From the NCBI GenBank assembly GCA_951406725.2, contig OX597818.1, positions 29,388,001-29,452,000 of the forward strand: a stretch of DNA of 64,000 bases, read 5' to 3'. Origin of the DNA: Octopus vulgaris. Lineage: Eukaryota. A model generated the notes under the pieces. That model made no database searches and had not been told where the DNA came from. It worked only from the letters and a program-made list of their open reading frames with translations. Positions 39,675-62,899 of this stretch are shown piece after piece (position 1 is the stretch's first letter; each line of letters begins with the position of its first letter). A program made the translations under genes and the position numbers.

Positions 39675-41175
39675 CTTTTTTTTTCAACTATTACCCCAAA
39701 ATATTACTAAGAACCACCTGTATATCATATTAATTTTTCTGTTTGATATTCCATATTTCTGATTCTGTGGCATCATCACTATTAACAAATATATATATAT
39801 ATAAGAGGAAGAAGACGATAGCATTTTTTTTTTCTAGTTTGGCACTTGGAGCAAAGGTGAGCCGTTGATTTATAGACTCGATCGGAAAAAGTCTGATTGG
39901 AAAAGTTCAACGTCCTTGTTACTGTCAGGAAATAGTCTGGTGCTCATGTTAGTAGTTCGTGTCAATAAAGAACATGGAGACGGGGTTTTGAGGGGTAATT
40001 AGTAATAATTCTTCTTGAAACATTGTGCTAAGTTTATTCTAAAAAAGATTTAAAGACCACTTTAGACGCCCGATGCGACTATTTCTTGTGATGTTCATAT
40101 GAGAAATAACCTAAAAAGCTCTTAAATCTGTTAAATTCTAATCGCTGATGATATGAGCGATATGTTCTTTTAGCGAGCCTTATGCTTATTCATTCGTGGG
40201 TGCTGTCATATTTCAAACATTATTCAAAATAGATGGTTTAATGTAGAAATACAAGACTGAATAACATAATTTGATCTGATTTGCTCAATCATTTGGAATT
40301 AGACAAGACCTATTAGAAAAGTCATGTTTTCGAGCAAACCTCTGGAGTTGGGCTGATATAAACGTATCTAAGTTAAATACAGAAAAATTTAAATAAAAAA
40401 AAACTTTTGCTTAATTTTTATGTATTTTTATCTAAGCAATTTACATATTGATAAAATTGAATATATCGAATGAAAATTTAGTATGTTGGCTACCTGATAA
40501 ATTTCAATCAATGTAAGACAACTTACACAATTGATAGAATACAGAATAGATTAGTTTTTATGTGAAAAATCATGACAATTGGTAGATAATCATCTTAAAA
40601 ACTGAGATGATACATTTCGAACTAAAGAAAGCTTAAAAGGTAATGGGAACAAAAATTTAACTTGAATAAATAAAAATATGATGTGATGTTTAGTACTCAT
40701 AGCAACCAGGAGCAATCAGACAAAAATTTTAAGTATGTTGTTTGTATCAAACTACTAATTAAACAAGAAATGACAGAATCCTTCTCAGTAAAGGAAATCT
40801 TATTAAAATGTTGAGTAGAAGGAATTAATACTGAGAGTATCCAATCTGTTTTCTATTGTCTCTTGGTCTATAAAAACATTTTCAAAAACTGGAGAAAAAA
40901 AAACAAGTGGAAGCATAAAAATATTCTCTTTTATACAAATTGTGCAAAAACAAGAACAAGTGAATTGCATTCAATTTTTTTAGACCTTGATTTTTTCATA
41001 ATTTTATTGGAACCAAAATAAAGTAGGTTTTTTTTTCCTGATTGATTGTCCCTCTTCTTTTCCCCTTGAATTTTAGAAAACAGTGTCTGGTTCATTTAAT
41101 GCATTTTATTATTTATTTGGTAAATCATTATTTGATAATACATGCGATGGCATACCAACATAAGACATTACATGT

Positions 41176-41268
<93 letters not shown>

Positions 41269-41652
41269 TGCATAGACATATATATATATATACATATCAG
41301 ATCTGGTCCCTATAGTAGAGTACATTTTTTCATAAACAACCGCTTAAAATCTTCCCACAATTAATATACTGTAGTGAACGCACATAAATGAAGTTGTGCA
41401 TTTTCATGTGTTTGTGTATTTTCGTGTGTGTGTGTGTGTGTGTGTGTGTGTCTGTGTGTGTGTGCACATACGCAAACTAACATACTTATGAATGTATGTA
41501 GAATTATATATACATAGCAAATGTATGCATACATGTATACATACATGAATTAAAAATACATTTATGCCCTCTTTTATGATCTGTGGTTTAATCTGGAAAA
41601 CAGCGACTCGTCGGTGATTGGTATGAAGCATATCTACTTTTGGTAGTTCGTC

Positions 41653-41767
41653 TCACTTTTTGCCGGGACCATCACCACTTTCAAGAAATCTCAACAGTTC
41701 TGCTAGTTCTGCAGCTTCCTGTGCAGTGCAGAGATGTTCAAAATTTGTAGTGCAACCTTTTTTTATT
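41653..41767 (-). CDS. Calcitonin-type neuropeptide precursor, last coding exon (mature peptide)
   Basis: Acceptor tattttaccag|A, then (R)IKK-GCTTNFEHLCTAQEAAELAELLRFLESGDGP-GKK-TGA. This gives a dibasic site, an N-terminal Cys pair, a helical middle and a C-terminal Pro-Gly-Lys-Lys amidation signal, the calcitonin/CGRP-family signature. Confidence 0.85.
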
Positions 41768-42793
41768 CTGGTAAAATAAATAGAATGTCATTAATTTTTG
41801 AAAAGAAATTTTGTGAATTCTTAGGTATTAAAAAGTATGAAAAACAACTATGCTACAGTTCAAGCTAACATTGAGTTCATCGTGGTCACTCGACTTGTTA
41901 GCTACCAGATCTCCCTACAAACACCTTTAAAATAAAGAAAAATAAATTGACTGATATAGTCATAAATGCATTATATCTGAAGTAAAAAAATGTGTTAGTC
42001 ATAATTGGAATATACGCTTGCTCGACCAAGGTTGGAGCTAGTCAACTGCTGGTCAAAGAGATCATAACACCGTTCCTATACTCGTAAAAGGATAGAAACC
42101 TTTCAGGAAAACTCTTCATCGCCTCTACTCTTCTGCGAAGCCGAGAACCATTGACAAATATGTTGGTTGAAACCATCAACAATTATAAGTGTTACGAAGA
42201 AGATTATAAACTCTTTATGGATGATCTAAAATTATTTATAAGTAACAAATTAAAACTGAACGGTAAATTGAAATAGTAAAATCTTGGATTTAAGACAGCC
42301 ACACATACAAGTAATTAGAACTACATTAAACAACCAGTCAAATGACTGAAACAAATAAAAGAATGAAAGAAAGAAAGAAAGAAAGAAATCAGAAGAAGCA
42401 ATTAATTCAATAAGTGGAACAGGAAAGGGAAAAAAATTAAAACTTTACTGCAGCATCTTCAACAGTAACAGCAGCAGCAGTGACAACAAATGTGGAAGCA
42501 ACAGCAACTAAAACAACAGAACACACACCAACATCAAAGGCCACATCATAGACAGCAGCAACAAAAAGAACATATAGGGGCAGGTAATATTTTGGTATAA
42601 GACCCGGGAAGAAGTACATCTTCCGAAACTGTATATGACAGAGACCTGAATATTATCTAGTATATGCATAAAATAACAAGAAAATTGAAGCAAACTGCCG
42701 AAGAATTGTTACTAATGAGACACGGAGAGAAGTTGAAATATGTCATTGAACTGGAAATAAGCAGAATATGGGATGTGAAAGTAAAAACAACAG

Positions 42794-43182
42794 TGTAGCA
42801 AGTAGCCATTTTAAAATAACGCGCCAATTGGTGGTAGCTGGCAATATGACGTAATGTCGTATTGCAAAGAAATATTATTGTCGTTTTTCCATTGGTTAAT
42901 ATAACTGCTCATATAGAGATTATAAAAGTTACTTAAAGAATATATGTGCGTGATTTCGATTCTTTTAAGTCAAGTTGAGCAGTTATAAAAACCCTGGATT
43001 TTTGGAAAAACTTTAGTGTTTGTTGGATGTAACTGAACTCCACGACACTCACTCCTTTGAGACATTGGTGATTTTCATACCATGTCCAAGGAAAATCCAA
43101 CAAGTTTTATTTGAATTGTTGTGATTCATTTATTAGTTAGATTTATGAATTAGTTAGTGAAATATATAGTCGTACTTCTACA
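42794..43182 (+). mobile_element. Solo-LTR-like element; first ~120 bp repeated at 44038-44160
   Basis: TGTAG..CTACA termini, with CCAAT, TGACGTAA and TATAAAA motifs. No TSD seen. Confidence 0.45.
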
Positions 43183-43641
43183 CGACGAAAATTATCTTTT
43201 CTTTCACATGTACATAATACAAAATGTTATATTTATATAATAAAACTAATTAAGAAAATGTTTTCTCTTCACGTTCTTCAACTGTGTATTATGCATTTCT
43301 GTAATCATTAAATTGTATTTTCTTATAGCGGTTAAATGAACACGAAGATAATATTATACATACATGACGCTAATATTTGTTAGCGTTCCATAAAGTATAT
43401 TTCTCTATGGCGTTATATACTGTAATTCGGATTTGCGTATAATGATAACACTTAAGTTATAAGTGACGTTTTAATCATTATATACACCCTTACTTTAAAA
43501 GCCAGATAAAATAATCTATTTCCAAATAGGAAACACAATAAATAGCATTACATTACTGTAACAAAACTAATTAGAGAATATACGATATAAATATAACCTA
43601 AGTGAAAGCTCATGGTTGCTTAAAACCGCTTATAGGAAAAT

Positions 43642-43683
43642 TGGTGACCCCGACGTGATCCGAACACGCAGCCTTCTGATCTG
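43642..43683 (-). pseudogene. tRNA-Trp 3' half with CCA end
   Basis: Minus strand CAGATCAGAAGGCTGCGTGTTCGGATCACGTCGGGGTCACCA matches the metazoan tRNA-Trp 3' half plus CCA. Confidence 0.85.
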
Positions 43684-43778
43684 TGAAAAAGACTAGAAGT
43701 GGCAGAATTGTACATTTTCCCAAAAAACTTCCTCAGTTTGTTTGAGGATTTTCAAAATTTTTTTTTATATATTCCTGG

Positions 43779-43820
<42 letters not shown>

Positions 43821-44424
43821 GATTTTTTTTCCAGTGAACTGAAATGAACTGTATATAAACATTATAATTGTAAAGCCGTATTGAAAGGTTAATTTCATTT
43901 GTTTAACATGTAATTTATAAATGCATTGTATATATTGATGTGTTATAACTATTAATTCAAATGTTGTTTTGAAATATATATGTATTACGAATTTCTTTTT
44001 CTCAAAATGTTAACAATTTTTCTGGCCAAGGGCTGAATGTAGTAAGTAGCCATTTTAAAATAACGCGCCAATTGGTGGTAGCTGGCAATATGACGTAATG
44101 TCGTATTGCCAAAGAAATATTATTGTCGTTTTTCCATTGGTTAATATAACTGCTCATATAACATCAATAATAATAATAAAAATAAGAATAATAATAACAA
44201 TAATAACAACAACAACAACAACAACAATAATAATAATAATAATAATAATGGCTTCAAATTTTGGTACAAGGCCAGCAATATCAAGTCGATAACATCGACC
44301 CGAGTGTTCAACTTGTACTTATTATATCGACCCCGAAAGGATGAAAAGTAATGTCGACCTCGGTGGAATTTGAACTCAGAACGTAAAGGTGGACGAAATG
44401 CTAACGACTCTTCCAACACGCCGC

Positions 44425-44486
<62 letters not shown>

Positions 44487-44779
44487 TGATGATGATGATG
44501 ATGAAATATTCGCCCTTCAAGGATGAATTGTGGAATCTTAAATAACTAAATTTCATAATTTTAAAGTAAAAAAACAATATGGCTTCCCAAATTGAATGGG
44601 GAAAGGGCTCTTGCAACAGCTATCATGAAGATAGTTTTCCTCCATTAACTACTGAAAAGGTGTATATAACAACAACTACAATAACAACAACAGCAACAGA
44701 AACAAACGCGTAAATGAAACGTGGCGCTCAACATCGCAGAATCCATCCAGCAACAAACCAACCTTAACACATATATAAA

Positions 44780-45720
44780 ACTATAACAAATAAAAGTAAA
44801 ATTTTAATTTGTGCTGCGACACGTCTGACTCAGCAAAGCATACATAACCAGGGGGATAAAATTCAGAATGGTAGGGGTGACTTTCTCTATAGAATATGAG
44901 CCCAAAACGCACTCCATTGTCACCCTAACGAGTAACGAACTGGTCCTCACATCAATTTACTTAGACCGTAGAGTTTTTAAAATAAAAATAGTCGACGTGC
45001 TCCCAGAAGTCAACAGCTGATGGTTAGTGGCCCTCTTCGACACAAAAGAGAAGACTAATATTCTACATGTCCAGAAGCTGCAGGGAAATATTGGTCGGGC
45101 TAGAGGATAGAGCTACTGATCCAAACGGTTCACCAAAGCATCGAAACTTTCTTGAACGTAATAAATCTACCAGACAGCACAAAATTACATGTGACCATTG
45201 AGAGCAGAAAGCTGAGGCGTTACTTATGCGTTGACACAAACTCCATCAAGGCTTTCTGTTTACAATAAAGGGAAGAAGAGAGACCACCTCTTCTGCTGAC
45301 ACCATCACCACAAAAATAACAATACTAACAACAAAAATAGTAGTAGCAGCACTAACAGCATCAATAACAACAAGATTAAAACTAACAGCCGTGGAAACAG
45401 AAGTAATACTAGCAGTAGCAAAAGTGACTGCAGCATTTTTAACAGTAACAGCAGCAGCAGCAGTAACAACAAATGTGGAAGTAACAGCAACTAAAACAAC
45501 AGAACACACACCAACATCAAAGGCCACATCACAGACAGCAGCAACAAAAACAACAGAGACCCTCAAAACAACTGCAACTATATCAACAAAAGAACACCCC
45601 CAAACCTCCCAAGACACACCATATTGACATGCCATGTGGTGAAGATGATGATGAGGACACCAAATGGCATATGCTAACAAATGCAGAAAAAGAAACAAAA
45701 ATATACCAATCCAAAAAAAA
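44780..45720 (+). mobile_element. Degenerate L1/Tx1-like ORF1 region with Thr/Ala-rich tail (part duplicated at 42437-42570)
   Basis: Stop-ridden coding-like sequence and low-complexity tract, upstream of L1-like ORF2 remnants. Confidence 0.45.
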
Positions 45721-45939
45721 CTTGGAGATACGAACAAATTGGGGAGGTGACTTCAAGTAAAGATACAGTAATACCACTCCCAAACATTTTACCGTGACGG
45801 CTGACAAAAGAGACGAAGTGTTGCTAAAAGCCGATAACAGCCGCGGAAACACAGGAAGTGATGATTGGTTGCACGGGCAGCAAGAAAATTGCCTGAATTG
45901 GATAGTCTGCCTATAAGCTTTATATGCCAGGCTTGTTTG

Positions 45940-46760
45940 GAGGCTTCTTGGTGTTCCGTTATCCGATACTATAGTGTCCAGGACACCGTATCGCGCAAAA
46001 AGTTCGTGAAGGAACCTTATTGTCACCTTCGAGGTTGGTTTACTGCATTTACATATCTCCGGCCACTTGGTATAGTTGTGTGCCATGATCAGATAATACG
46101 CGCCGTTTACCGGTCCAGCAAAATCTATATGTAGCCTGAACCACGTACTATCTGTTTGGAATTTCACCGGTAATGACTATGCTGCGAGAGCTCAACCTCT
46201 GCAGGATTTCACCAACTGTTCAATATCACGGTCCATAGTAAGTCAATACACGTAACTCCTCATTATTGATTTCATTCTTGAAATCCCTGGATGTCCCATA
46301 TGAACTTCACTTAGTACACGTTTATGTAGTGCGGCTGGCACTACAACTTTTTTTGCGTACTTCAATACATTATCACACAGAGAAAAATGGTTCGCAATTT
46401 TACGTCTATTTTTATTTTATTTTACCTTCAACGTTTCTTTCATCTTAGCAATGAATTTGTCATTCTCCGACTTTAATTTTATATCTTGAACAGTTACTGG
46501 CAGCCTCCAGAATGACGTGACACAAATATGTTTTTTATTTCATTTTCCGCTCGCAACGCAGCAATCACGGTATCTTCGAATAGTTCCGTATTTTTTTGAA
46601 TTAGCCTTGATAAGCAATCCCAACTTCTTGGATGGTATATACTCCACCGTAAAGTCGTAATTCAACAATATCGTGCCCCAGCATTGTAACCTATTTGTAG
46701 TATGGGTAGGAATTCCTTTCTTTGACCCAAAAATTGATAATAATTGTCGGTGGTTAGTTC
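45940..46760 (-). mobile_element. Gypsy RNase H/integrase remnant
   Basis: LLSIFGSKKGIP..RLQCWG..YDF; GHPGISRMK; RLHIDFAGP..FARYG..TIVSDNGT. Confidence 0.85.
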
Positions 46761-47699
46761 TTGATGATACACCGCTCTTTTGTTCTTGCGAGAGACAATA
46801 TCATTTTAGACGCACAATAGGATTTAACTGTTAAAAGATGGTTGGTAAAAGCGTCGCAAACTTGTTCGGGCAGTTTTAACCGCCTGATAGTTATCGACTG
46901 GAATTCTCGAATATACAAGTGTAGACTGTGCATCGGCCATCCAGAATGTTACTGAAACGGGCTTTTGTGAGGTCAGCGGAAGGGACTGTGTAGAGTGTTC
47001 ACAGTTTTAACAGTTGTGTACACTGACTCAAAATATGTGACCTGCACCCTCGACCTAGATAAGACACATAAACAATGATACAAGCTCCCGGAATCTGAGT
47101 GACGAATTAGGTTAGGCAATCAACTTGATTAATGAATTAGATAAATGAATTAGTTAAGAGCTAATTGACAGAAGTATTCGTCAACATCCTGTGGTGGAAC
47201 GCTTTGAAAAGATTGATTGCAGATGAATTAATAAAGTTTGCTAAAGAACTGCCGAAAGAAGAAAATAGGTTAGGCTCAGGGTTAGGAAATTAAAATTATC
47301 GATTACGAAAAGTATCGGTACCGGTGTGCTAGAGATGAGGATGGCGCACCATTTTCTGAATGTAGCGCTCGAAGATTGCATTGTTTGAGGTGAAGCATAC
47401 GTTCTTAAACACGAAAGAAAAAAAGTCGTACGATTGTTTCCACATTGCAGACATGGAAACAAAGCTCCAGTTAGATCTCTGACGGACCGGGAAGCGCGCG
47501 TGCTACTCGACTTGAGATGTGTGCAGCTTTTCAGTGGCATTTTGTTCAACTGTTTAGAGAAGACAATGAACTGGAGACGATAGTAAACTTTAGTTCCCAC
47601 CATAACGCCCTGCAGAGGATAAGGAATATTGTGAAAAGTCGATAACAGTAGCGAGGTACAGTTAGTAGTATGCAGTTGTATGGGGGTCAAATCACTTAG

Positions 47700-49138
47700 T
47701 TTTGATGATTTGTCTTATAAGCTTTACATATATATTCCTGAGTTGTTCACCGACCTCTGGACAGACATCTCCTGCAACTGAAAGCAAGAATGGGCCAATT
47801 CCCGGTTATATGGACCGGAAAGTAATAGCTTCGCCACTGAAGTTACGCAAGTAAGGTATACGTAATTGATAACTTCCGGTTAATATCTCTACTGAAAGCA
47901 GAGTTTAAGATTTTAACCAAAGAGCTAGCAAAGAGATCGGTACTTCTCTTTAGTAAGGCAGTTGTGAAAGAGCAAACCTGCACGATCCCAAGCAGATCTA
48001 TCTACGATATCCTCCTCATAGTGCAATACACCTTAGAAAGGATAGATTCTGCGGATCTCTGATCCATTCGCATCAACACAAAACTTCCGATAGTATATAT
48101 CAACGTTATTTAGCGACTGCCATTAAGATAGTCGGTTTTGATTCCATTTTCCAGAAGTTACTTTAATTTTTGTAGGTGATCAGGTGTGGTTATTCTCTTT
48201 CAATAACTCGTCTTTTTGACAGGATTGCACTCGTAAGACAGATGAAGATTGAGCACCTGATAGCTGGAATATTCTCAACCTCTCACAACTCTATACTTGT
48301 TCATTAATGTATTCGGTGGAAGCTACACGTTAACAATCTTTAGAAGATTAGAGATGGGCAAGAGCGATAACGTTCTCATAAAGAAACTGAGTGTTGACGA
48401 GAATTAACTGATTGGTCTATTCTAGAATACTTCGGCTCGGTGACTATGGATAACGTTTAGGATTTCCTGGTCTGACAGTACTACAGAAGTACATTGCTGG
48501 CTCGAAATAAACTTTACAGGCACGGATGTGCCGTTAACCAAGCCTGTCCGTGCTACATGCATTCGTTCAGGGTACTGACTTGTGGAGGATTGTCGAACAG
48601 CGTTTTTCACGCGTAGGGCGTATGTAGTTGGCAATCGAGTTCAACGTAAAAATCACCGCGATCCTTTGGCCGCAAAAGATAAGCAAATTTTCTCTGTCTA
48701 CTGTCTACTTGGCGAAAATGGTTGTGTTGAGGATGCAACTGAAAAGATTGATGACAGACACTTTTCGTTTAGGCCATCGATTTTTTAAAGTTTCACTTTA
48801 AGATAGGGTGAAGGAGGTGCTTCCCTCCTCCCCAGTTCCCCAGTAAATTTGTGCAAGATGGTGTTGAACATGACCTGCATGAATGGACCTGCTCTCAGCA
48901 TGTTTCTTTAAATTGAGGATTGGCTACTGGAAGATGGCACTTGTCGTTGATGTTTAAGAAATATTGACTCTATGGGTTTCTTTGGTCGGTTTTAAGTCGT
49001 TGCCCCTCACCTAATGGGGAATCTTCCCTGTTCATATTTTATTGTTTTGTTATTTTTTACATGCACGATTGTCTTTGTATTCCATCTTTTGTATTGTCTC
49101 CCAATATTTTGGAGTCCTTGTGGCAAATGAAGAATGGA
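47700..49138 (+). mobile_element. Degenerate L1/Tx1-like ORF2 and 3' UTR
   Basis: ISLLKAEFKILTKELAKR..EQTCTIPSRSIYD. 3' end gtggcaaatgaagaa resembles the 3' end of the 54019 element. Confidence 0.65.
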
Positions 49139-49489
49139 TTATTATTATTGTTATTATTATTATTATTATTGTTGTTGTTGTTACTGGTGAGCTGGCAGAA
49201 TCGTTAGCACGCTGGACGAAATGCCTGTCACTACGTTATGAGTTCAAATTCCGGCGAGGTTGACTTCGCTTTTAACCGTCCGGAGTCGATAAGTACCAGT
49301 GAAACACTGGGTTCGATGTAATAGACTAGTTCCCTCCCCCGAAATTGCTGCCCTTATGGCAAAATTTAAAATCAGTTTTATTAGTGTTTATTTTTGTCCT
49401 CCATATGTTCACCGCTTAGTTCTCAGCAATGCTTTGAATTTGAGAGATACGACAGATACTTTGAAAAGTTGAGAGATACGACAGGTTAG

Positions 49490-49757
49490 CTTGAGAAGTT
49501 AAGCAGTTGTGGTCGATGAAAAAGGCAGCATTAATATAATACCAATAATAGTCGGAGCCATGGGAACAGTGAGAAAAATCTCGAGAAGTATGTGGAACAA
49601 ATATGGACTGCAATAAGGGTGGAGCACTTTCAGAAAACAGCACCGCTCGAATACTCTGGAAGGTGCTCGAAGAATAAGGGGTGTTACCTTAGTTCACTGG
49701 TAGTGAACAGCTGACACTGTAGTACATCTCCAGCATTAGAAGCTGTGCAAAGGCAAT
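49490..49757 (+). mobile_element. R4/Dong-like 3' fragment 1
   Basis: IIPIIVGAMGTV..QKTA, then 3' UTR and (AAC)n(AAT)n. Confidence 0.7.
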
Positions 49758-49760
49758 GAT

Positions 49761-49802
<42 letters not shown>

Positions 49803-49820
49803 AATAATAATAATAATAAT

Positions 49821-50593
49821 ACATGTCGTGTATGCCGACAACAAAATGAAACCATTGATCATGTTGTCTCCAAATGCAGTCTTTAAGCGCCTACAGAGTA
49901 CCTCAACAGGCATGATAGAGCTGCACAATATATTCACTGGGTAATTTGCAAAAACCTGGATTTGCCCCATGAAAAAAACTGGTGGGAACACAATCTACCT
50001 CCAGTGCTTGAAAATGACCACATCTCACTCCTCTGGAACTTCACCATTCAAACTGACAGAAAGATAGATGCAAATAGGCCAGACATCATATTGAAAGACT
50101 TCAGACAAAGAACATGCCTCCTCATTGATATGACTGTCCCAATCGATATAAACGTATCTGTCAAGACCTACCAAAAACTGAGCAAATATAAAGATCTTGA
50201 AATAGAAATCAGCAAAATGTGGAACCTGAAGACTAAAACAATACCTGTTGTCATAGGTGCCCTGGGAATGATAGCGAAAGGGGCTGATTGCTACTTAACT
50301 CAGATACCAGGAAACCCCAAAATGGCAGAAATTCAAAAGATAGTGCTCATGGGAACTGCTCATATCCTACGCAAAATACTCTCTATGTAATCCCAAGGTT
50401 TAAAACAAACTTTTTTTAAATTTTTTAAAAAAATTTATTTATTAGACATTCACTAGTACAACACCCCAAAAAAAAACAAATATATGGCACACTAGGCATA
50501 ACAACAACGTGAACTTCCAACCTGTTGTCTCTTGAGGTCTCTGGCTGAGACTTGGAGCCAACTTGTACAGACATAAAGCAAAAGTCAAGCATA
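49821..50593 (+). mobile_element. R4/Dong-like 3' fragment 2
   Basis: RHDRAA, LWNFTIQTDRKIDANRPDII..IDMTVP..K..KY..IPVVIGALG..GTAHILRKIL, then (AAT)n. Confidence 0.92.
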
Positions 50594-50678
<85 letters not shown>

Positions 50679-50724
50679 TATAATTATAATAATAATAACA
50701 ATAACAACAATAATAATGATAATA

Positions 50725-51974
50725 AGTCAAGGTCAATGAGGCATATCAAAAAAGGGTGAAGATGGTGTTGAAATCCAACCTGAAAGCCAAAAATTTGATT
50801 ACCGCAATGAATATCTGGGCAGTTGCGGTGGTCAGATATAGCGCGTCAACCCTCAAATGGACTAAGGAGGAAATATCAACACTGGATAAAAGGACGAAAA
50901 CATTGATGACGCTGCATGGGACGCTACACCCTAAAGCAAACGTAAACAGTCTATATATGAAAAGAAAGAATGGTGGCAGAGGACTAATTAGTATAGACCA
51001 TTGTATAAGGAGTGAAAGGAGAACGCTTGCTGAGTATTTGATAAATAGTGATGAAGACCTGCTGCAATATGCCGCGAAAGATATGAGTGTAAATGCAGAT
51101 GACATTATGGCAAAGCAGAGTTTAACCAAAGAGCTGAGAAGAAAAGAAGACCTTGAAATGAGAATACATGGTCAGCTTGAAAGGAATACACAAGACGTTA
51201 AGGATAATACAGCATCGTGGGCATGGCTTGAGCGAGGTGATTTGAAGCGTACCACCGAAAGTCTGATCATTGCTGCACAAGACCAGGCACTTGCTACCAA
51301 TTCAGTGAAGTATAACATCTATAAAACTTCTGACACCCAGAAATGCAGACTCTGTAGAAAGAGTGTGAAAATATGACACACTTCAGAGCCTTGCACAAAA
51401 AGAATACAAACGCCACCACGATAGAGTTTGTACTTTCATTGGCTCTTGTGCCATAAATACCAATATGAAGTGACAGAGAACAGGTGTGAGCATGTACCAA
51501 GTAAAGTTATGCAGAAGGATGAAAAAGTAACGATATTCTGGGACTATGATTTTCAGATGGATCGTGTAATCGAACACCGTCGGCCGGATATTGTCATATT
51601 GAATAAGAGAGAGATAAATACTGTCAGATCATTGATGTAGCCATACCAAATAATATGAATGTAGTGAGTAAAGAAGTTGAAAAAATCACCAAGTACTCCG
51701 AATTGAAAGTGGAAATGGCAATATTGTATGGAATGCGAGAGGGTAATGTAAAAGTGATACCACTGGTGATCAGGGCGTTAGGCTCAATCCTATTGAAACT
51801 CCAAAACTTCTTAAGGCAACAGGAAATCCCATGCAAGATTGATGTCTTGCAAAAAGCAGCCTTATTGGGCACAACGCACATCTTAAGGAAAGTATTATCT
51901 GTCCGAGGTCCTCGTTGTGACTTGACAGATGACTAAAGACTCCAATGCGTTTTTATCTACACTGTGTGACGAAG

Positions 51975-51975
<1 letters not shown>
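50725..51975 (+). mobile_element. R4/Dong-like 3' fragment 3
   Basis: LYMKRKNGGRGL, IIAAQDQAL, CRLC, RRPDIV, GTTHILRKVL, then (AAT)n. Confidence 0.92.
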
Positions 51976-52057
<82 letters not shown>

Positions 52058-52117
52058 GTAATAATAATAATAATAAGAAGAAGAAGAAGAAGAAGAAGAA
52101 TAAGAATAATAATAAAA

Positions 52118-52330
52118 GATTCAGACATATACATAACAAAAACACCAGGACTTACAAATATATATAACATACAGAAAATTGCACTACTGGGCACTGCACA
52201 CATCCTATGCAAAACACTTTCAACAGAGTAACCATAAGAGCATCACAGCAAACCACAACACATACCCAAGGCACACAGAGCTGCGCTCTGTAGTAAAGTG
52301 AAAGCACGTTATAAAAATGAAACTACTGAA
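52118..52330 (+). mobile_element. R4/Dong-like 3' fragment 4
   Basis: TPGLTNIYNIQKIALLGTAHIL, then 3' UTR and (AAT)n. Confidence 0.85.
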
Positions 52331-52799
52331 TAATAATAATAATGAGGATAATAATAATAATAATAATAATCCTTTCTACTATAGGCACAAGGCCTGAAAT
52401 GTGGGGGAGAGGACTAGTCGATTACATCGACTCCGGTATTTCACTGGTACTTAATTTATCATGCCCGAAAGGATGAAAGGCAAAGTCGGCCTCAGCGGAA
52501 TTTGAACTTCAGAACATAGCAACGGGCGAAATACCGTTAAGTATGAACATGTTTAAACTTGAAAAATTTTATGAAAATATTATACGTTTAGGATTTTTAT
52601 AAAATCTGGATTCATCCATCCACCATTCACCTTCTTCGATCACTATTCCTGGTAGGATTGCTAGGAAAGAGTCTTCAGGCACCTCTTCCACAGGGTCCTA
52701 TGAGAAGCAGCCGTCATTAAACATTTCTGTTGGATTCCCAACTGAGACTAAGGATATTATCAACCATCTCTCTCGTGGTCTATTACTATCTATTCCGTC

Positions 52800-53110
52800 A
52801 GTCAGCTTAGCTTGAAGAATCTGTCTGCGATCTTTTCCTGTGACATAGTATCCATATGTTCGTAGTACTGGACAGGTAGCGACTCAGACTGGAGAGCGTC
52901 TCTGATCTCAGAGTACCGTTACTCCAGAGATCAATTCGGAGGAATCCCATTTCGGCCGCTTGCATTCACGATCTTAATCATTTGATCTAACATTCATGAG
53001 CATAGGTGAGAATAGATACGAAAACCAAACTGAATACAGCAAGTTTGGCTTTTTTACCATTTTCTATTCTGAGGATCGAATACTGAACCTGGCACATTAC
53101 TGTATCGGCA
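52800..53110 (-). mobile_element. RTE-type LINE remnant
   Basis: KAKLAVFSLVFVSILTYAHEC, a post-RT motif. Confidence 0.6.
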
Positions 53111-53519
53111 CTTGCAAGTCTAGCATATAATTCAGTGGAAAGACAGTTTCCATAACAAATTATGCACGTTGTTGCTGTTGTTATCCAAGGTAACCAACCC
53201 AAAAGTTTGTATATCAGGAGGTACCCTGTTCAAAATACTCGTATTATTATTTAACCTTAGGTCAGTTTTTATCAAATATGCCTATAATGAAAGATACCCT
53301 AACCATGACTCTCCAGTCTTTTTCAGGCATATTGTACCCCTGGACAACAGTATCTAATGTGTCCTTTTTAAGGAAGGGTGCCATCTGAATGAGCTTTGAC
53401 AGTTCCTATTTCTAGCTGCTCAAACGACCATATAGAAGCTCCTTCATTGTCCTTTATTTAGCATGACATGACGTAGTCTGGAAGAGATTTGTCAGCATTT
53501 ATAGCAGGCTGAGCGATAA

Positions 53520-53550
<31 letters not shown>

Positions 53551-53971
53551 CTCTTTCTCTCTCTCACACATCCACACCCACACAATGTACTCACACTCAG
53601 ACTCACAAACACAATGCACTCACACACACGCGCACACACATACACACAATGCACTCACTCGCATGCACAGTCACACGCACTCAAACACATATGGAGACAT
53701 TTGGTATTAGTATGGGTAAAAAGACTGAAATGACAAAAAGGCGTTCATATAGACAGACAGACAAGACAGGCAGACAGACAGACAGAGAGTCGGGCAGATG
53801 GGCAGACGGGCAGACGGACAGACAGACAAACAGATAGGCAAACAGATAGGCAAACAGATAGACAAGCAGAAAGACGGGCAGACGGACATACAGGCAAACA
53901 GATTAACAAACAGGCAGGCAGACAGACAGACAGACAGACAGATAGATAGATATATATATATATATATATAT

Positions 53972-54018
<47 letters not shown>

Positions 54019-55225
54019 TGTTTCTTTATTAGCCACACAGGGCTGCACACAGATAGAACAAATTACAAGGTAGAGCTTTTCTTTTGAAGGTTTAAGAAAG
54101 AAAAAAAAAAAAAAAAAAAAAAGGAAGGGGGAGTTTCGATCAAAAGGGATCGTAAAAGGAGAGAAAGAGGACAAAAAAAAGGGGGGTTTAAAAAAAAAGG
54201 GGGGAGGAAAAAAATTGATCAATAGGGATCGTTATCACAGAAATGTCAATATGAAGTGTAAAGGGGAGGACAGGTGAGGTTTACCCGTGCAAAGAAAAGC
54301 CTACGGAAAAGACCACGGTAACCTCGGTCAATGATGTCACATTTTATATTTCTTTTTTTTTTTTTTTTGCAAATAAGCAACTCTCTGTTTTCGATTTCTG
54401 GGTTCATAGGACTATGCTCAAGGTGGCTTCGTCATTCATACGTGCCATTCTTGCTACATTCACCCATCTTTTTTTAAAACATTCGCTAGACAAAACTTGC
54501 CTCTCTACTCTCACTTTCCTTTTCAAGTGGTACTTGAAGAAGTTGATGAGAGATTGACCAGAGAGGAAAGTGTTTGTCTCCAATCCTTTCAGACGCGTCC
54601 ACCAGATACATTCTTTCGCCATAGCCACAAGGATGATGAAAATAGCTCTTCCTTCCCGTTTGAAGGAAGGAGGCGTGACAATATTGACGATAGACTCAGC
54701 TGATAAACCGACTCGTCCCACACGTGACAGCAGTTGTTCGACGTAAGCCCACAGGTCGGAAATTGTTGGACACTGAACGAGTGCGTGCAGAACGGTTTCG
54801 TCGCTCTGACCGCATCTCGGGCAGGTCGGCCCCGTGTTTCTCGAGCCGTGTCTGTAGAGCTTATCCCGAACGGGTAGCGCTTCTCGGTAGCACTGCCAGG
54901 CCAGGGATCTCTGGAAGTTGTCCATGGGCCCTGGCCCGAAAGTCGTCCTGAACAGGCGGGTCAGGTACTCCTCGTCGACGTCCAGGTTCGCCCCGAGCTC
55001 GTCGTCGTACCTCCCCTCCACTAAACCCCTATAGAATGCTTTGGTTGTGTTGAAGTCACTTAAGGTCGACCCAGGACGGCAGAGTTGCTTGAGAGCAACG
55101 CGACACTCGCGGTGCCATTCGCCCTTCCTCGGCCTCTTTTTGATCCACGACTGCAGTTCGGTCATGGAGACGAGCTGCGGGAAAGCGTGCCTCACAAACG
55201 GCGACCACACCTGTTCACCGTCGTC
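54019..55225 (-). mobile_element. Young 5'-truncated L1/Tx1-like LINE inserted in (GATA)n
   Basis: Uninterrupted ORF2 C-terminus with CPRC..ETVLHALVQC finger, U-rich 3' UTR and AATAAA. (TAGA)n on both sides. Confidence 0.9.
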
Positions 55226-55285
<60 letters not shown>

Positions 55286-55355
55286 TAGCGATTCTAATCT
55301 CCTCAATCAAAAATATTCTGAATACATCGAAACTGGAATGAGAGTGAGCACCTAC

Positions 55356-55412
55356 CTTGTACCACCTGTACCCTCGAGTAGAATTTTCAAGAGGTTTGTA
55401 GACGCTCTTTTA
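55356..55412 (-). CDS. Calcitonin-type precursor, pro-peptide exon
   Basis: Acceptor tttccattcatcttacag, donor AG|gtaggt. 57 nt, phase 2/2, open frame KRASTNLLKILLEGTGGT(R). Joins in frame (AG|A = Arg) to the 41767 exon. Confidence 0.7.
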
Positions 55413-55653
55413 CTGTAAGATGAATGGAAATAATTATCAAAAAAATAATTTAAAATATTGGCTTTTTGTTTCGGTGTTGGGTATGGCAAGATTTAATGGA
55501 AAAGGTCTATCCTAAACGTATTTAATAGATATGAGAATTACAACTGAATATATTTTATGTAGAACAACGTAGATTTCTAGACGGTTAAAAAATGAATTTG
55601 AAGGGTTCCGGAGACAAGTAGAAACAAATTGATAATTGAAGCCATTGTCCTAA

Positions 55654-55743
<90 letters not shown>

Positions 55744-55768
55744 GGATAGACAGAGAAGACAGGCAGGC

Positions 55769-55855
<87 letters not shown>

Positions 55856-55883
55856 CAGAGAAGACAGGCAGACAGACAGACAA

Positions 55884-55960
<77 letters not shown>

Positions 55961-56018
55961 CAGACAGATAGATAGACAGAGAAGACAGGCAGACAGACAG
56001 ACAGACAGACAGACAGAT

Positions 56019-56087
<69 letters not shown>
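55654..56087. repeat. Compound (GATA)n/(GACA)n microsatellite
   Basis: Direct reading; three higher-order units delimited by gacagagaagacaggcag. Confidence 0.95.
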
Positions 56088-56365
56088 AATAATAACTCAT
56101 TAGTTTCCTTTTAATTTGTTCTTTCAAAGACCACTTTATAGATGAAAAGTTTGCCCTTAGATAAGTGAAACCAACTTTAACCTTAACTATTTGCAAATAA
56201 CTTGTTGATAAGTTTCTGAAGCACATCAAATATTGTAAAGCTACGCTTGTGGTGTAGTGTATCTCATGTGGTATCTTGCAAATAAATGATTAGGTAAATG
56301 TTTTGTTCAAATAGGCTTAGTGAATTAGATCCAGTCATTTTTTTGTCCGTTGATGTTCCTGCCGG

Positions 56366-56966
56366 TGTAGTTATTGCAATTCTTATTTAACTCTTTAAGA
56401 CATTCCATCCGTCTTTATCCAGAGAATTATATCTAAGTCTGTGTTGTCTAAAGTGTATATGTTCACATTTTGCATGTTTACCTTTAAGTAGGCGTATATC
56501 GATTTGTACGTTGTTTTTTTTTACAAGTGGTCGCATGACCTGGTCACGTGATAGTTGAGTCCTGTTCCATCCCATCACATGACAGACCAGCCGAGCCTGG
56601 GAAATTTGTGCCTGTTCGCTGGGAGCCAACTGTCAGCTATATAAGGGTGGTGTTCTCTATTTCTTTGGTGAGGCGAGTTGCGCGGTCAGGTTCAGATCTC
56701 GACAGAGATCAAGTTTTATTTCGCTGATAGCCTCCGACGCGTACGCCTGTTTTTGCCTGCCAGCAGAAGTCATGTCTCGTATTTGTTTTCCTGTTCAACG
56801 CCGCATACATCATATACCAACTGCATGAGAATCATTGTGCATATTTGCTGACAATATTATATTTCAAGATGTATCTCAGCAACGTTACCGTGTTAATACT
56901 CTTTAACAGATTGAATAAATCATCGCATTTAATCTTCGTGGTTTTATGTTTCTTCCTTAATCTACA
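56366..56966 (+). mobile_element. Solo-LTR-like element
   Basis: TGTAG..CTACA termini, TATATAA near 56638, AATAAA near 56914, CpG-rich. No TSD seen. Confidence 0.45.
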
Positions 56967-57830
56967 TACACACGTACATTGGAACTCAAACCAGCTTTAT
57001 TCATCAACTCAACTAACTCCGTGAAATGTTCTCTAAGACAGGTTTGTTAGCGAGCTATTTGACAGTTATTTTAGTAGGTGGAGCTACTACGTAGATTCTT
57101 CCTCGTTAACTCGATCCTGTTGTTGTTGTTATTGTTGTGGTGTAGTGGGGCAAGTGGAATACAGTGAATCATGATAATTTTTGAAAACGTGAATATTCAA
57201 AAGGTTGGTTTCTACTAGCTTTTCGCAATTCAAACATTCGTTACTTCATTTTATGAAAGACATCATTACTTGACCATTACTGTAGAATATACAAGCTAAG
57301 CAACCTAGTTTTTAATACCTTCATCTATTCAAACTTTACTTGCGCTGAGGTCAATGTAATTTGCTTACCGGCTCCCACGGAATTGCTGGCCTTAAATTTG
57401 AAACTGATATAACAAATTATTTTAATTCACTGAAATAAAAATTCATTTTTAAACAAAAATGATTCTGTGAATTCATTTTACAGTGTTAAAGCGAATGAAG
57501 TGCTTTTTAAAATTTTCCTTTGTATCATTAAATTTATTGTTTTCTTAAGTTGCTGTTGAAACAGTATGTATATGATTTTGTGTTAAAGATTCCTTAAGTG
57601 TGCCTAATATTTGAAAGAATTTAGTGGTCGTTTTTTTTGTAACAGTCTACAATTGACTGCTATTCCAATAATTTAATAAAATATGGCGCTAGTTATATTC
57701 TCGGTCTTCTTTGAGTTGTTCAGTCTTATGTCGATTCACTGTTTCGCGGGAGATAATTCACTGCGTATTCGGCGTAGAGCATTGACTACTAGCATATGAC
57801 TTAAACAGATTGTATGAAAGTATGCCATAC

Positions 57831-57875
57831 GATCGTTTCGATCGCTGGTCGTCCTCAGAGCGACAACAGTGAAAA
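57831..57875 (-). CDS. Calcitonin-type precursor, exon encoding end of signal peptide and RxKR site
   Basis: Weak acceptor tttttatttaaaag, donor TC|gtatgg. 45 nt, phase 2/2, FHCCRSEDDQRSKR(S). In frame with both neighbouring exons. Confidence 0.55.
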
Positions 57876-58193
57876 CTTTTAAATAAAAATATGAAACTCA
57901 ACCTCGTGCTTTGTATTACATATGAAAGTAATCTACTTCAGTGTAACTAATTTCGGCGAAGCAAATACATTACACACACACACATACACACACACATACA
58001 CACGCGGGCACGCGCACGCACACACATACACACATACACACACACACAAATACATGCATACGTGACTGCATGCATGCATGCATACATACATACATACATA
58101 CATACATACATACATACATACATACATACATACATACATACATACATACATACGGGCGCAGAATTATGTACATACATACATACACACGGGCGC

Positions 58194-58342
58194 CAGGGGT
58201 GGACTGAGCCGTCGGTCAATCGGGCACTGCCCGAGGGCTCGGAGCTCAGAGGAGCCCGCGCTCTACATGTTAACTTATCACTGCTAAGGGGCCCGGCAAA
58301 CAGTTATGCCTGGGGGCCCTTAATACTCTCAGTCCGCTCCTA
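58194..58342. mobile_element. Short hAT-like MITE
   Basis: caggggtggactgag / ctcagtccgctccta imperfect TIRs and gggcc motifs. Confidence 0.6.
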
Positions 58343-59814
58343 GTGCAAGCTATTTTCCTAAGGAAACGTTGTCGATTACGCAATCTAATTTTCCGATATC
58401 GTCTCGGAAAGTGGCATGAAAGGTTTAAAATTTTTCTTTCTGTTGATACTTTTAATATACTTTTATTTCCTTTAATTTTGTTGATTTCTTTTACTGTACT
58501 AATAATGTAATCTTTTTATAAACGGAGGCATTTAGCTGGCTTTTACGGATGAGTGTACGATAGTGAACAATCTTTTTTTAGCAACACTTCATTACAATAT
58601 TTGAAGCGATTTGTTCTGTAGTCGGCATCTCAAGAAATGGATTTTCGGTTGATACCCAACACGCTGTTGACTCGACATCTGCTTTTAGATGAAAATGGCC
58701 TGTAAATTGGATGTAAAGGCCTATAAATAGCCTTTGCCCTTACATTTTCATTGCATTGTCTGAATGTTGAAATGCGATTGTAACAGCTTGTTCTCAGCTC
58801 TTCGTCTTTCCATGCAGCTAATAGCGATGCTTCTGTTTCAAAACTTAAATCAGATTGACTTCTGTATAACCTAATTTAAATTCATTAAATTCTATCTCTC
58901 TCAGAATAAATTGAAAATTAATTGGCCAGATATTTTCTTTTGTTCTCAAGCTTTTTCCTTTCTTTTTTATTCTTTCTTTGTTTTTTCTCTTTTCATTTTC
59001 TATCTCATTTTATGTTCTTTTGGTATTATACTTCATTCATTTCTCTCACTTTAGTTTTTCCATCAACAGTTCTACGCCGTTTCTTATATACAGTTAAAAA
59101 AAAATTTTGTAATCACTTTTCATAGCTAAAAGACTCTTCAATTACACAACGAATTAAATTGCTAATGATAGGATAAAAGTAATGAGTCTATAGGAAAGAC
59201 AAAATTTTGTGTTATAATTTTCAAAAGTAGATATATATGAAAAAAGTATCTAGTATTCCACAAATATTGAATTTTATCTTCTTGAAATATCACCAGCATA
59301 TTGAACAAGATCCTCTGAATGAATCTTTTTGATATACATTTTGGAAACTGGCCAGGAAAAAATGTCAACTATCTTGTCAAAAGAGCGAACACTTGATGGT
59401 TTTTGTTTGTGTTTATTTTTAGTATAGTTACCCTAGTTGTAATTTTTGTGCCTCCATAAACGCAGTCTTTTGTTTTCAATTATGATATTTAAATTGTGAA
59501 ACCGATACACAGTGCAGAGCTACTTAATGTGGGGTCTACTGCATAATATATGTTCCTTGCTTAACATTAATGTTCTTTGATTTGGAAAGGGCATCTACTC
59601 AAATCTTGGAGAGGTTGAATAGATGATGAGTGGAGGTGTGTACTTGTGTGTGTATATATACGTGAATATATATCATTTCTCATGCATGTGTTTAATTTCG
59701 GTTTTTCTGGTTCTGTTTAAATATTCCTGTTTCAATATTTATCTCATACAGATCCGGCTGCAAAATTATGTTGATTAGATTTACAGAAGTACAAAAACGA
59801 AATCGTTAATAACT

Positions 59815-60043
59815 ATTTCTTTACTTCCCACAATGGGCTACACACAGAGGGGACAAACAAGGGCAGACAAACGGATTAAGTCGATTATATCGACCCCAGT
59901 GCGTAACTGGTACTTAATTTATCGACCCCGAAAGGATAAAAGGCAAAGTCGACCTCGGCGGAATTTGAACTCAGAACGTAACGGCAGACGAAATACGGCT
60001 ACGCATTTCTCCCGGCGTGCTAACGCTTCTGCCAGCTCGCCGA
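59815..60043 (-). mobile_element. Young family C SINE
   Basis: CpG-rich copy ggcgagctggcagaagcgttagcacgccggg. Confidence 0.85.
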
Positions 60044-60960
60044 AATCGTAAATAACACGACTAAAATTACTAAAGTCAAAATAAAGTGATACTAAAAGCA
60101 TGAAATGACAGTAACATTCATTAATATCATGGTGGCTTGTATTATAATTCTCTAATCTCTTGTAACTGAAGTCGGTCTATAGAAACAGAATCTAATGTCA
60201 TTGTTAGTTAATTGAGGTTTTCATTGTAAAGAAGCCAATAATTTTCTCCTTCGAGAATGAATTCCATTTTCTCCCTCGAATGCTCTATTTAAGTATTAGT
60301 TACAAATTCTTCATATTTAAGTTTCGATTAAAAATATTGCTATAATTTTACGGAATAATCTTTCTAAACGACCTCTCAGTCACTTTGAGTTTGCGGAACG
60401 GAAATCGCCTGCGAATGATGGTTTTAATTTTTTGCACAAAGCCAGCAATTTCAGGACAGGAGAATTGATTACATCACCACAGTACTTGACCCCCGACAGG
60501 AAAAGTCGATTTTGGTGGAATTCGGACTCAGAACATAAAGACGGACGAAATGCCGCTAAGCATTTTGCCCGGTGTACTAACGATTCTGCCAGCAAATAAT
60601 ATTGTGTGTATTATGTTAAAAATATTGCGTTTTGCGCGATGGGAAGAATATCTATTTGTAACTATTCATTTGTAATATTTATTGACGTTTGATATATTCC
60701 ATATTTTCAGAGAAGTGGAGCAACAGAAACCATAGACTGCTGTACTAAATGGCTTATTACTTTTAATTTACATCTCTGCGTACCGATAACAAAGTGAATG
60801 CCACCGCGGTTGAGTTTTACTTTTTATTGTCAATGAAACCATTAGTGTTTTGAAGTGCGATTTTGTACCAATGTAAGAATTCAATATATTCCATTGCTTT
60901 GGTGAAGCGAGTATGTTGCAAATTCAAATCTTGCAAAATTTAAAGTCTCCCTACACGTAC

Positions 60961-60992
60961 ACAGTTAATAACATCGGAAAATATATAAGCAT
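60961..60992 (-). CDS. Calcitonin-type precursor, signal-peptide exon (exon spans 60961-61015; ATG at 60992, or an unseen upstream start)
   Basis: Acceptor tttatatttcag|G at 61015, donor GT|gtacgt. Hydrophobic frame IGNLVVV-MLIYFPMLLT(V); its phase-2 end matches the next exon. Confidence 0.6.
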
Positions 60993-61642
60993 CACAACTA
61001 CCAAGTTGCCTATACCTGAAATATAAAGCCTATGAGTTAAATCAAAATCAAATATGTATACAGTAATAGCTCACTTTACAATGACCCGCTTTACGAGACC
61101 AGGGTTTACGAGTTTTATTTTATAATATATTTTTTAAGTACAAGATCCAAATTTTGAACGAAGTGCAGAAGTTTCTACTACCATGACAAAGTCTTCTGCT
61201 TGTTAGCGAAAAATTTATAGATAGCGAAAAAAGCTTTCTTCTAAGCAAAAACTCTAGATTTGTTTTTGTTTTAATTTACAAGTCCGTCTACGAGTGCTTG
61301 TGAATCGGCGATCGCGTCGAAGTGGTGTGCTCGAATCTAGTGCCAGTGAAAGTGATTCAGAAAATAATAATAATAATAATTTTTTGTTATAAATGATCTT
61401 GATATTCTTTTTACTTTACATAAAATATTCTTTACATTCTACTCTTGTTTATTGCCATTTATTATAAATTTTATAGGTAAAATATTTTTCTGGAAACGAA
61501 TTACGATTTTATAACATCGCTACTATGAGAAATTATTGTTCTGCTTTGCAAGTCTTCGCTTTACAAGCGGTCTCTGGGAATAAATTAACTCGTATATCGA
61601 GTCATTACTGCATATATATATATATATATATACACACGCACG

Positions 61643-61714
<72 letters not shown>

Positions 61715-61717
<3 letters not shown>

Positions 61718-61938
61718 GGGAGTGCTGAAAAGTTCTTGGCTTCGGGTAAAAAAAAAAGAAAATACAGGAGGGTCATTTAATTACGCGTTTATTCAACATA
61801 TCCCACTCTGAGATTCACACATTTATTGCAGCGGTCATTCAGTTTTTCTAAACCCTGTAAAAGAACTCGGAAGGTTACGCCATCAACCAAGTTTTTTGCG
61901 ATACCCTTAAACTCAGGAAGTTTTCAGCACCCCCTCAG
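61715..61938. mobile_element. Mariner-type MITE between (CA)n and (TG)n tracts
   Basis: TIRs aggg.gtgctgaaaa.ttc.tg at both ends. Confidence 0.75.
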
Positions 61939-61999
61939 TATATCTGTGTGTGTGTGTGTGTTAGTGTGTGTGTGTGTGTGCTAGTGTGTGTGTGTGTGT

Positions 62000-62037
<38 letters not shown>

Positions 62038-62899
62038 TGTGTAAGTGTGTGTGGGTGTGTCTGTGTATGTGCAGGTATGTATTCTGTCCTTGGGTGAGGG
62101 AACATGCTGCTCAGTAGATCGAAATTATTCTCGTGCTCTTACTTGCCCCCTTCGTTTTCTCTCTTTTGCTACGGTCTAACAAAGTTACATCTTTTGATTG
62201 TACGATGTATTTATGGTTGTATTGAAGCAAAAAAAAAAATTGAAATAAAAGAGAAATATTCGATAAAATTAATTATTTAATTTGGCGATTTCGTCTTCAA
62301 TGCCATTCATTTAAAACTGTAAATATACGGTGTCTCTGAATTAACTATTTCAATGAAATCGAGCAAATTTTATATAAAATGATAGAATCTTATGTTTATT
62401 ACTTTATTATGATGCCAAAGCAAATAGATTTTATAAATCTTACGTCAAAACTTTATTGAAAATTTTCAACATGTGCTCCGTTTGTATCCCGCCAATTTCA
62501 AATCTATCATTAGCAATGCGAAATACATTTTGAAGCGTTTAAGGAGTTATCACCTGCACTGCTACTTGAACTATTGTTCCATTGTGGTTATGGGGGTAGA
62601 GAAAATGATTACAGCTAAATTGAAAAGAAGCTGTTGTGGACAAATAAGCAGGATTCAACAAGAGTGAAAATAACATTATGAAAAAGAAATTATAAAAATT
62701 ATAAAATTATATAGAATTAAAAAATTGTAAACGCATTTTAAACACTATAAACATAAATAAAAGTGAGTTTCTAAAAACATTGTCCGATTTCACTGTAAAG
62801 ATAGTTAATTCTGGGATACCTTGTATATTACTTTTAAAACTGCAAAATTGACTGCTGAAAAGTTTTCTAAAGTGCATAATACAACTGTGCAACAGAAGA

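What the first reader, a model, noticed from the sequence alone, without database searches (positions are those of the whole stretch)
41653..61015. Hidden four-exon calcitonin-type neuropeptide gene missed by the ORF track
Seen: four small minus-strand exons with GT-AG sites and matching phase-2 junctions splice to an 82-aa ORF: MLIYFPMLLTVFHCCRS-EDDQRSKRSKRASTNLLKILLEGTGGTRIKK-GCTTNFEHLCTAQEAAELAELLRFLESGDGP-GKK*. Predicted product is a 31-aa peptide with a Cys2-Cys10 bridge and Pro-amide. A second piece, ASTNLLKILLEGTGGTRI, is bounded by dibasic sites. Knowledge: lophotrochozoan calcitonin-type peptides have this layout and act on family B GPCRs. Inference: exon linkage is my assembly; exon 2 is the weakest and extra exons or an upstream start are possible.
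Basis: partly seen in the sequence, partly recalled or inferred. Interest (0 to 1): 0.72.

Follow-up and report, generated by a model that had tools for sequence, protein, structure and literature searches.

The report
Second octopus calcitonin-type neuropeptide gene
This is a real, spliced octopus gene for a short precursor predicted to be secreted and to release a 31-residue calcitonin-type signalling peptide; it is an ordinary but overlooked second member of a known family, and its true front end lies outside the window rather than in the two exons first proposed.

Summary
Real gene, half-wrong model. All four proposed exons have AG/GT ends and phase-2 junctions and read as 82 aa. Spliced contigs from 4 of 4 likely-RNA runs laid (4 studies) confirm the 55356/41767 junction. 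The same contigs join exon 55412-55356 directly to a signal-peptide exon 8 kb beyond the window (C5:29460208-29460091), with exactly 57 nt between it and the last exon. The corrected precursor is 90 aa, equal to residues 101-190 of a public 'hypothetical protein' whose ends are probably mis-modelled. It has a hydrophobic leader, KR, an 18-aa spacer, KK, a 31-mer with Cys2/Cys10 and terminal Pro, then GKK-stop. This matches the C-x7-C type of molluscan calcitonin; a pygmy-squid precursor in a published set looks orthologous (11 of 31 identical, by eye). The catalogued octopus calcitonin is a different gene 80 Mb away with the same last-intron position. Processing, tissue and receptor are untested. 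New member of a known kind.

The parts
41653..41767 (-). Coding part of the last exon: one base + I-K-K, 31-residue peptide, G-K-K, TGA (41655-41653)
   Evidence: Sequence; covered by spliced contigs in 4 of 4 runs; identical to P0001
41665..41757 (-). Predicted mature calcitonin-type peptide, 31 aa, Cys2/Cys10, Pro31; calculated monoisotopic mass 3318.53 if amidated and disulphide-bonded
   Evidence: processing inferred from family rules
41435..41652 (-). 3' UTR, read without a splice past the stop; contigs stall at 41435-41443 in a GT microsatellite. Candidate poly(A) signals at 41592, 41117, 41110, 41008 (untested)
41768..55355 (-). Intron 3, 13,588 nt, GT-AG, phase 2; holds retroelement fragments and microsatellites
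   Evidence: Junction in 4 of 4 runs; length; fragments
55356..55412 (-). Middle coding exon, 57 nt: K-R site and most of the 18-aa spacer
   Evidence: Loose ends match its two ends; 57-nt gap in all 4 contigs
55413..64000 (-). Window part of intron 2 (16,678 nt in all). It runs off the window's end to the two upstream exons, which lie OUTSIDE the window: (a) the true signal-peptide exon, 118 nt, G000:C5:29460208-29460091 = L005:1622-1505 (window-equivalent 72208-72091, ATG at 72191, AG/GTAAG, phase 2); (b) a 5' leader exon without ATG whose 3' end is at G000:C5:29468146 (window-equivalent 80146) and whose 5' limit is unknown because contigs stop after 127-162 nt at a TATC microsatellite
   Evidence: the leader exon's loose end is shown for 3 of 4 runs
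57831..57875 (-).
60961..61015 (-).
40828..40866 (-). Extra 3' coding piece of the public model P0001; not joined in any of the 4 contigs

Best explanation
This is a spliced, transcribed octopus gene of at least four exons whose three coding exons give a 90-residue precursor that is predicted to be secreted and likely cut to release one 31-residue, disulphide-looped, Pro-amidated calcitonin-type peptide, which would signal through a family B (secretin-type) G-protein-coupled receptor. Shown: the exon chain (leader exon, signal exon, 57-nt exon, last exon), the reading frame and the stop. Inferred: the hydrophobic leader (about residues 1-17 to 1-21) targets the protein to the secretory pathway; a prohormone convertase cuts after KR35-36 and KK55-56; carboxypeptidase E trims the terminal KK, which needs no endoprotease because the stop follows; PAM turns Pro-Gly into Pro-amide; Cys2 and Cys10 form the ring. 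The 18-aa spacer is most likely pro-region, not a second hormone. By analogy with oyster, the receptor is likely of the lophotrochozoan 'cluster A / L-DCc2' calcitonin group signalling by Ca2+ and cAMP, with a likely role in ion or water balance or neuromodulation. The gene is the paralogue of the already catalogued octopus calcitonin and the likely orthologue of the short pygmy-squid precursor.
For: Junction 55356/41767 in 4 of 4 runs from 4 studies; the same four contigs (661, 668, 627, 642 nt) carry the signal exon joined directly to 55412, with a 57-nt gap in 4 of 4. Intron cover is 0-7 against 27-1247 on exons, and the last exon is single-copy, so a retrocopy does not explain the joined form. 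The spliced frame equals P0001 101-190. Leader hydropathy 4.20 over 8 residues with a basic residue near the start. Peptide length 31, C-x7-C and Pro-Gly-basic match the C-terminal peptide of the molluscan precursors listed in the supplement of PMC6425005; by eye 11 of 31 identical to Idiosepius notoides.202702 and 9 of 31 to the Lottia peptide, ungapped. The Idiosepius precursor is of similar length with the same layout. The known octopus paralogue at C5:109.86 Mb has its inferred acceptor at the same place (one base plus three codons before Gly1) and aligns at score 26 against -22 +/- 8.6, 0 of 2000 shuffles. Defining features and receptor pairing: passages of PMC7200681, PMC8557429, PMC12638048.
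Against: No profile evidence: Pfam finds nothing on the last exon or a calcitonin family on P0001; phmmer over 1.84 billion representatives returns only P0001 and a chance VWA protein; two further protein searches found no homologue; the Atlas lists neuropeptide precursors (PDH 0.91, DH31 0.90) but only 1 of its ten best family hits shares a family with the best. The squid comparison is by eye, not computed. The shuffle test is lenient (global alignment, ends anchored, paralogue found by motif). KK is a weaker convertase site than KR (my own knowledge), though R53 sits at P4 and the Modiolus precursor also has RKK there. The run type is the tool's guess; tissue is unknown. No peptide or receptor data.
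Confidence: 0.85

Rival explanations
1. The gene is a calcitonin-type precursor, but KK55-56 is cut poorly, so the main product is an N-terminally extended 51-residue peptide starting after KR35-36 (alone or beside the 31-mer).
For: KK rather than KR precedes the peptide, while a KR lies 18 residues upstream. The four contigs show no other letter at the KK codons, so majority A-to-I recoding to KR is not seen (contigs drop rare variants). Mussel CALCIIa lacks a consensus N-terminal site, so atypical N-termini occur in the family.
Against: R at P4 and an RKK precedent in Modiolus; the squid orthologue and the octopus paralogue have KR at this place, so the 31-mer boundary is the conserved one.
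Confidence: 0.15
2. The reader's four-exon, 82-aa form exists as a minor isoform from an internal promoter near 61 kb.
For: All splice sites are canonical and phases match; contigs show only dominant paths and I did not lay them on 57-61 kb.
Against: 0 of 4 contigs contain these pieces; 42 comparable cassettes occur in the same intron; the leader would be a weak signal peptide.
Confidence: 0.04
3. The public 203-aa model is right: translation starts 100 residues earlier, in an exon at C5:29476247, and the protein ends in an extra exon at 40866-40828.
For: It is a deposited model with usable splice sites, and its second exon overlaps the RNA-supported leader exon.
Against: 4 of 4 contigs read through the TGA without the 3' splice. 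At the 5' side they hold 127-162 nt, which is 13-48 nt more than the model's 114-nt exon, and stop at the microsatellite edge; if contiguous this includes an in-frame TAG (inferred from lengths, letters not seen). The extension would bury the signal peptide.
Confidence: 0.04
4. The peptide has left endocrine signalling and is an exocrine product (for example a salivary-gland hormone mimic) or a non-calcitonin peptide of similar layout.
For: It is divergent and acidic, with no profile hit; depth differs about 45-fold among runs, though contig depth cannot rank expression.
Against: A likely orthologue in a squid with the same layout; shared intron position with the paralogue; the cephalopod venom preprint mentions calcitonin only in an abbreviation list (passage only).
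Confidence: 0.05

Closest known systems
Idiosepius notoides.202702 calcitonin precursor (supplementary file 3 of PMC6425005)
   Same: Short single-peptide precursor, similar start of the signal peptide, leucine-rich pro-segment, dibasic site, 31-mer with Gly1, Cys2, Cys10, an EAAE run and Pro-Gly-basic end; 11 of 31 identical by eye
   Different: KR instead of KK before the peptide; no dibasic site in front of the pro-segment; short tail after the amidation site; aromatic residues near the C-terminus replaced
Catalogued Octopus calcitonin precursor (octopusVulgaris.26696 / Ocbimv22002419; located here at G000:C5:109861818, L020)
   Same: Same chromosome, same inferred phase-2 intron position before the peptide, Gly-Cys start, Pro-Gly-basic end
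   Different: 34-mer with C-x10-C, only 6 identities in the alignment, 80 Mb away on the other strand, has a C-terminal tail
Molluscan C-x7-C calcitonin peptides (Lottia Lotgi1166645; C-terminal peptide of chiton, scaphopod and bivalve precursors; mussel CALC, oyster Cragi-CT)
   Same: 31 aa, two N-terminal Cys, C-terminal Pro-amide signal
   Different: Many of those precursors carry two peptides; this gene has one and no second motif in 124 kb; the NLGxH loop consensus is not kept
DH31
   Same: Calcitonin superfamily, 31 aa, Pro-amide; second Atlas hit at 0.90
   Different: DH31 lacks the cysteines; this peptide has both
CAI9722611.1 / P0001, 'hypothetical predicted protein', labelled Octopus vulgaris
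   Same: Residues 101-190 are identical to the corrected precursor
   Different: Adds 100 N-terminal and 13 C-terminal residues that the contigs do not support; carries no functional name

Membership tests
Lophotrochozoan calcitonin-type precursor | Transcribed, spliced open reading frame | tested here: met
   4 of 4 runs; 90 aa
Lophotrochozoan calcitonin-type precursor | N-terminal signal peptide | tested here: inconclusive
   Hydropathy fits well (8-mer 4.20, 12-mer 2.92, one basic residue) and small-residue cleavage sites exist after 17, 19, 21; SignalP not available
Lophotrochozoan calcitonin-type precursor | Two N-terminal cysteines in the mature peptide | tested here: met
   Cys2 and Cys10; feature named. 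The bond itself is not shown
Lophotrochozoan calcitonin-type precursor | C-terminal Pro followed by Gly and basic residues | tested here: met
   Pro-Gly-Lys-Lys-stop, read through in 4 of 4 contigs
Lophotrochozoan calcitonin-type precursor | Mature length 31-33 aa after a dibasic site | tested here: met
   31 aa after KK; range from PMC7200681 section 7. KK is the less usual pair
Lophotrochozoan calcitonin-type precursor | Sequence similarity to known members | tested here: inconclusive
   By eye 11/31 and 9/31 to published peptides; above 2000 shuffles against the paralogue; no Pfam or database hit
Lophotrochozoan calcitonin-type precursor | Shared intron position with a family member | tested here: met
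   Paralogue's acceptor (inferred from DNA and the published precursor, not from RNA) lies at the same offset and phase
Lophotrochozoan calcitonin-type precursor | Amidated, disulphide-bonded peptide detected in tissue | not testable with these tools
   Needs peptidomics
Lophotrochozoan calcitonin-type precursor | Activates a calcitonin-type family B GPCR | not testable with these tools
   Shown for oyster and mussel peptides; an O. vulgaris CGRP-receptor candidate is listed in PMC12919962; I did not search the genome for receptors
DH31 | No cysteines in the mature peptide | tested here: not met
   Two cysteines present; definition
Two-peptide calcitonin precursor (chiton, scaphopod, mussel type) | Second calcitonin-like peptide in the same precursor | tested here: not met
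   One motif in six frames of 124 kb; no spare base between the coding exons in 4 contigs

The most novel reading that the evidence does not exclude
Coleoid cephalopods keep two single-peptide calcitonin genes although octopuses have almost no shell, and this overlooked, fast-diverged one has taken on a new job: the weak KK site and a newly gained upstream KR let one precursor yield a 31-mer, an 18-mer and an extended 51-mer in a regulated way, giving a new ligand set for octopus calcitonin or PDF-type receptors.
Probability: 0.12. Interest if true: 0.5.

Novelty: new member of a known kind. Interest (0 to 1): 0.3.

Why it matters
It adds a second calcitonin-type ligand to the octopus neuropeptide set and corrects a public gene model that hides its signal peptide, so it can be synthesised and tested on octopus family B receptors. 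Calcitonin signalling in molluscs has been tied to shell calcium and ion balance (PMC7200681), and a near shell-less mollusc with two such genes is a useful comparison. It does not introduce a new mechanism. It also shows that exon chains assembled by eye inside long introns can be right at the conserved end and wrong at the front.

Tried and rejected
Public 203-aa model: 3' extension not in 4 of 4 contigs; 5' extension unlikely but not directly excluded. Hidden second calcitonin exon or tandem copy: none in 124 kb (window plus 60 kb upstream); a peptide split by an intron would escape that scan. Retrocopy as source of the joined form: last exon single-copy. A-to-I recoding of KK to KR: no other letters in 4 contigs, which cannot show minor editing. 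Protein searches: only P0001, none, P0001 plus a chance VWA protein P0002. Pfam: nothing relevant. Atlas structure hits all under the bar. Run search: no holder is on record as RNA, kinds are guessed; four other organism labels hold 0.24-0.68 of the sampled words, but I did not lay them, so I do not count them as conservation. Literature: an exact 10-residue motif found 0 papers in main texts and motifs found 0 places in the supplements of PMC6425005 (6 files, file 3 cut when stored) and PMC8557429 (1 file). Schwartz 2019 and Cardoso 2024 are not held. The cuttlefish neuropeptidome paper (Zatylny-Gaudin 2016, recalled, not read) and bioRxiv supplements, which I did not open, may list this gene or its orthologue. 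Earlier scan notes: 8 shown of 10, none on this gene; none. No structure or complex prediction was run.
Full report
Observation. The four pieces are in the sequence as described. The window is G000:C5:29388001-29452000 in a 2.80-Gb genome, and the last exon matches once. The surroundings are AT-rich, microsatellite-laden DNA with retroelement debris. Positions above 64000 below continue the window's numbering into the adjacent genome.

RNA test, last junction. Twenty of 24 listed runs hold the last-exon stretch or part of it; none is on record as RNA, the kind is guessed. I laid 4 of them, from 4 studies. Each has one contig that covers 41470-41773 and then leaves the genome; the loose letters are the reverse complement of the end of exon 55412-55356. 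Intron depth is 0-7 against 27-1247 on the exon. A canonical GT-AG join with a single genomic copy shows these are spliced transcripts. The contigs run through the TGA with no joint.

Finding the real front end. The only protein hit among 57 candidates was P0001, CAI9722611.1, an unnamed 203-aa protein labelled Octopus vulgaris. Its other parts map upstream, beyond the window. Laying the same 4 runs on L005 showed the same four contigs (same lengths and depths) covering L005:1505-1624, with loose letters on one side equal to the start of exon 55412 and on the other side equal to an exon ending at C5:29468146, in the 3 runs (X1, X2, X13) for which those rows were shown; the fourth run's contig covers the same piece at matching record positions. 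Record positions leave exactly 57 nt between the signal exon and the last exon in 4 of 4 contigs. The dominant transcript is therefore leader exon, 118-nt signal exon, 57-nt exon, last exon, with introns of 7,937, 16,678 and 13,588 nt. Limits: contigs drop rare forms, and I did not lay them on 57-61 kb.

The precursor. From the ATG at 72191 the frame is 90 aa and equals P0001 101-190.

Mechanism. Shown: exon chain, frame, stop. Inferred from established prohormone processing (my own knowledge): signal cleavage, convertase cuts, carboxypeptidase E trimming, PAM amidation, disulphide ring. The weak step is the cut at KK; an extended 51-mer is the main rival. From the literature: oyster calcitonins activate cluster A / L-DCc2 receptors at nanomolar level with Ca2+ and cAMP output (passages of PMC8557429 and PMC12638048), and a mussel peptide activates one CALCR at micromolar level and raises mantle calcium (abstract and passages of PMC7200681). 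For this gene, receptor and role are analogy only.

Comparison. PMC7200681 section 7 gives the family features: 31-33 aa, two N-terminal cysteines, amidated Pro; PMC6425005 passages add that DH31 lacks the cysteines. In supplementary file 3 of PMC6425005 I read a calcitonin block of 20 entries, 4 of them cephalopod: two Idiosepius, one O. bimaculoides, one O. vulgaris. None is this gene. Idiosepius.202702 has the same short layout and 11 of 31 identical peptide residues by eye, so it is the likely orthologue; no tree was built. The catalogued octopus precursor maps once, to C5:109861818 on the plus strand; it encodes a 34-mer with C-x10-C, has its inferred acceptor at the same offset, and aligns above 2000 of 2000 shuffles under a lenient test. 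Against: no Pfam, phmmer or word-index support and only weak Atlas leads, which is expected for a short divergent peptide but leaves membership resting on motif, layout and intron position.

Novelty. I found no print record of this octopus peptide in seven paper searches (listings only, except the passages cited) or in two sets of supplements, but two key papers are not held and others were not seen. Two calcitonin precursors per species is already known in oyster, mussel, limpet and sea hare and in Idiosepius. So this is a new member of a known kind with a corrected gene model. Interest 0.3.

Noticed in passing
window 54404-55306 (-): 300-codon open stretch with a zf-RVT domain (E 2.7e-08): 3' part of a LINE, 50 nt into intron 3 on the gene's strand, starting at a TATC microsatellite
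   Followed up: partly
window 28484-31534 (-): LTR-retroelement-like region with a 542-codon open stretch (DUF7047, E 5e-20) and further frames; observed only
   Followed up: partly
window 22952-25683 (+): Fragmented LINE with a reverse transcriptase piece (RVT_1, E 3.2e-07)
   Followed up: partly
window 27976-28377 (-): Mariner-like transposase fragment (Transposase_1, E 2e-04, under the curated cut-off)
   Followed up: partly
window 45583-46800 (-): Integrase-like fragment in intron 3 (rve, E 1.9e-05, under the curated cut-off)
   Followed up: partly
window 49887-51936 (+) and 15454-16311 (-): Similar-looking fragments, by eye the 3' ends of a non-LTR element with a restriction-like endonuclease (recalled resemblance); no Pfam hit for 50726-51373
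   Followed up: no
L005:1926-2324: Short repeat in intron 1 hit by hundreds of contigs in three of the four likely-RNA runs, arranged partly as an inverted pair; probably a SINE
   Followed up: no
L020 (G000:C5:109860318-109863355): Last exon of the catalogued octopus calcitonin paralogue; it was not returned by any protein search with this gene
   Followed up: partly
L005:983-1391: Two low-depth intronic contigs of run X1 differ from the genome at 5 bases and one 3-base insertion; likely alleles
   Followed up: no
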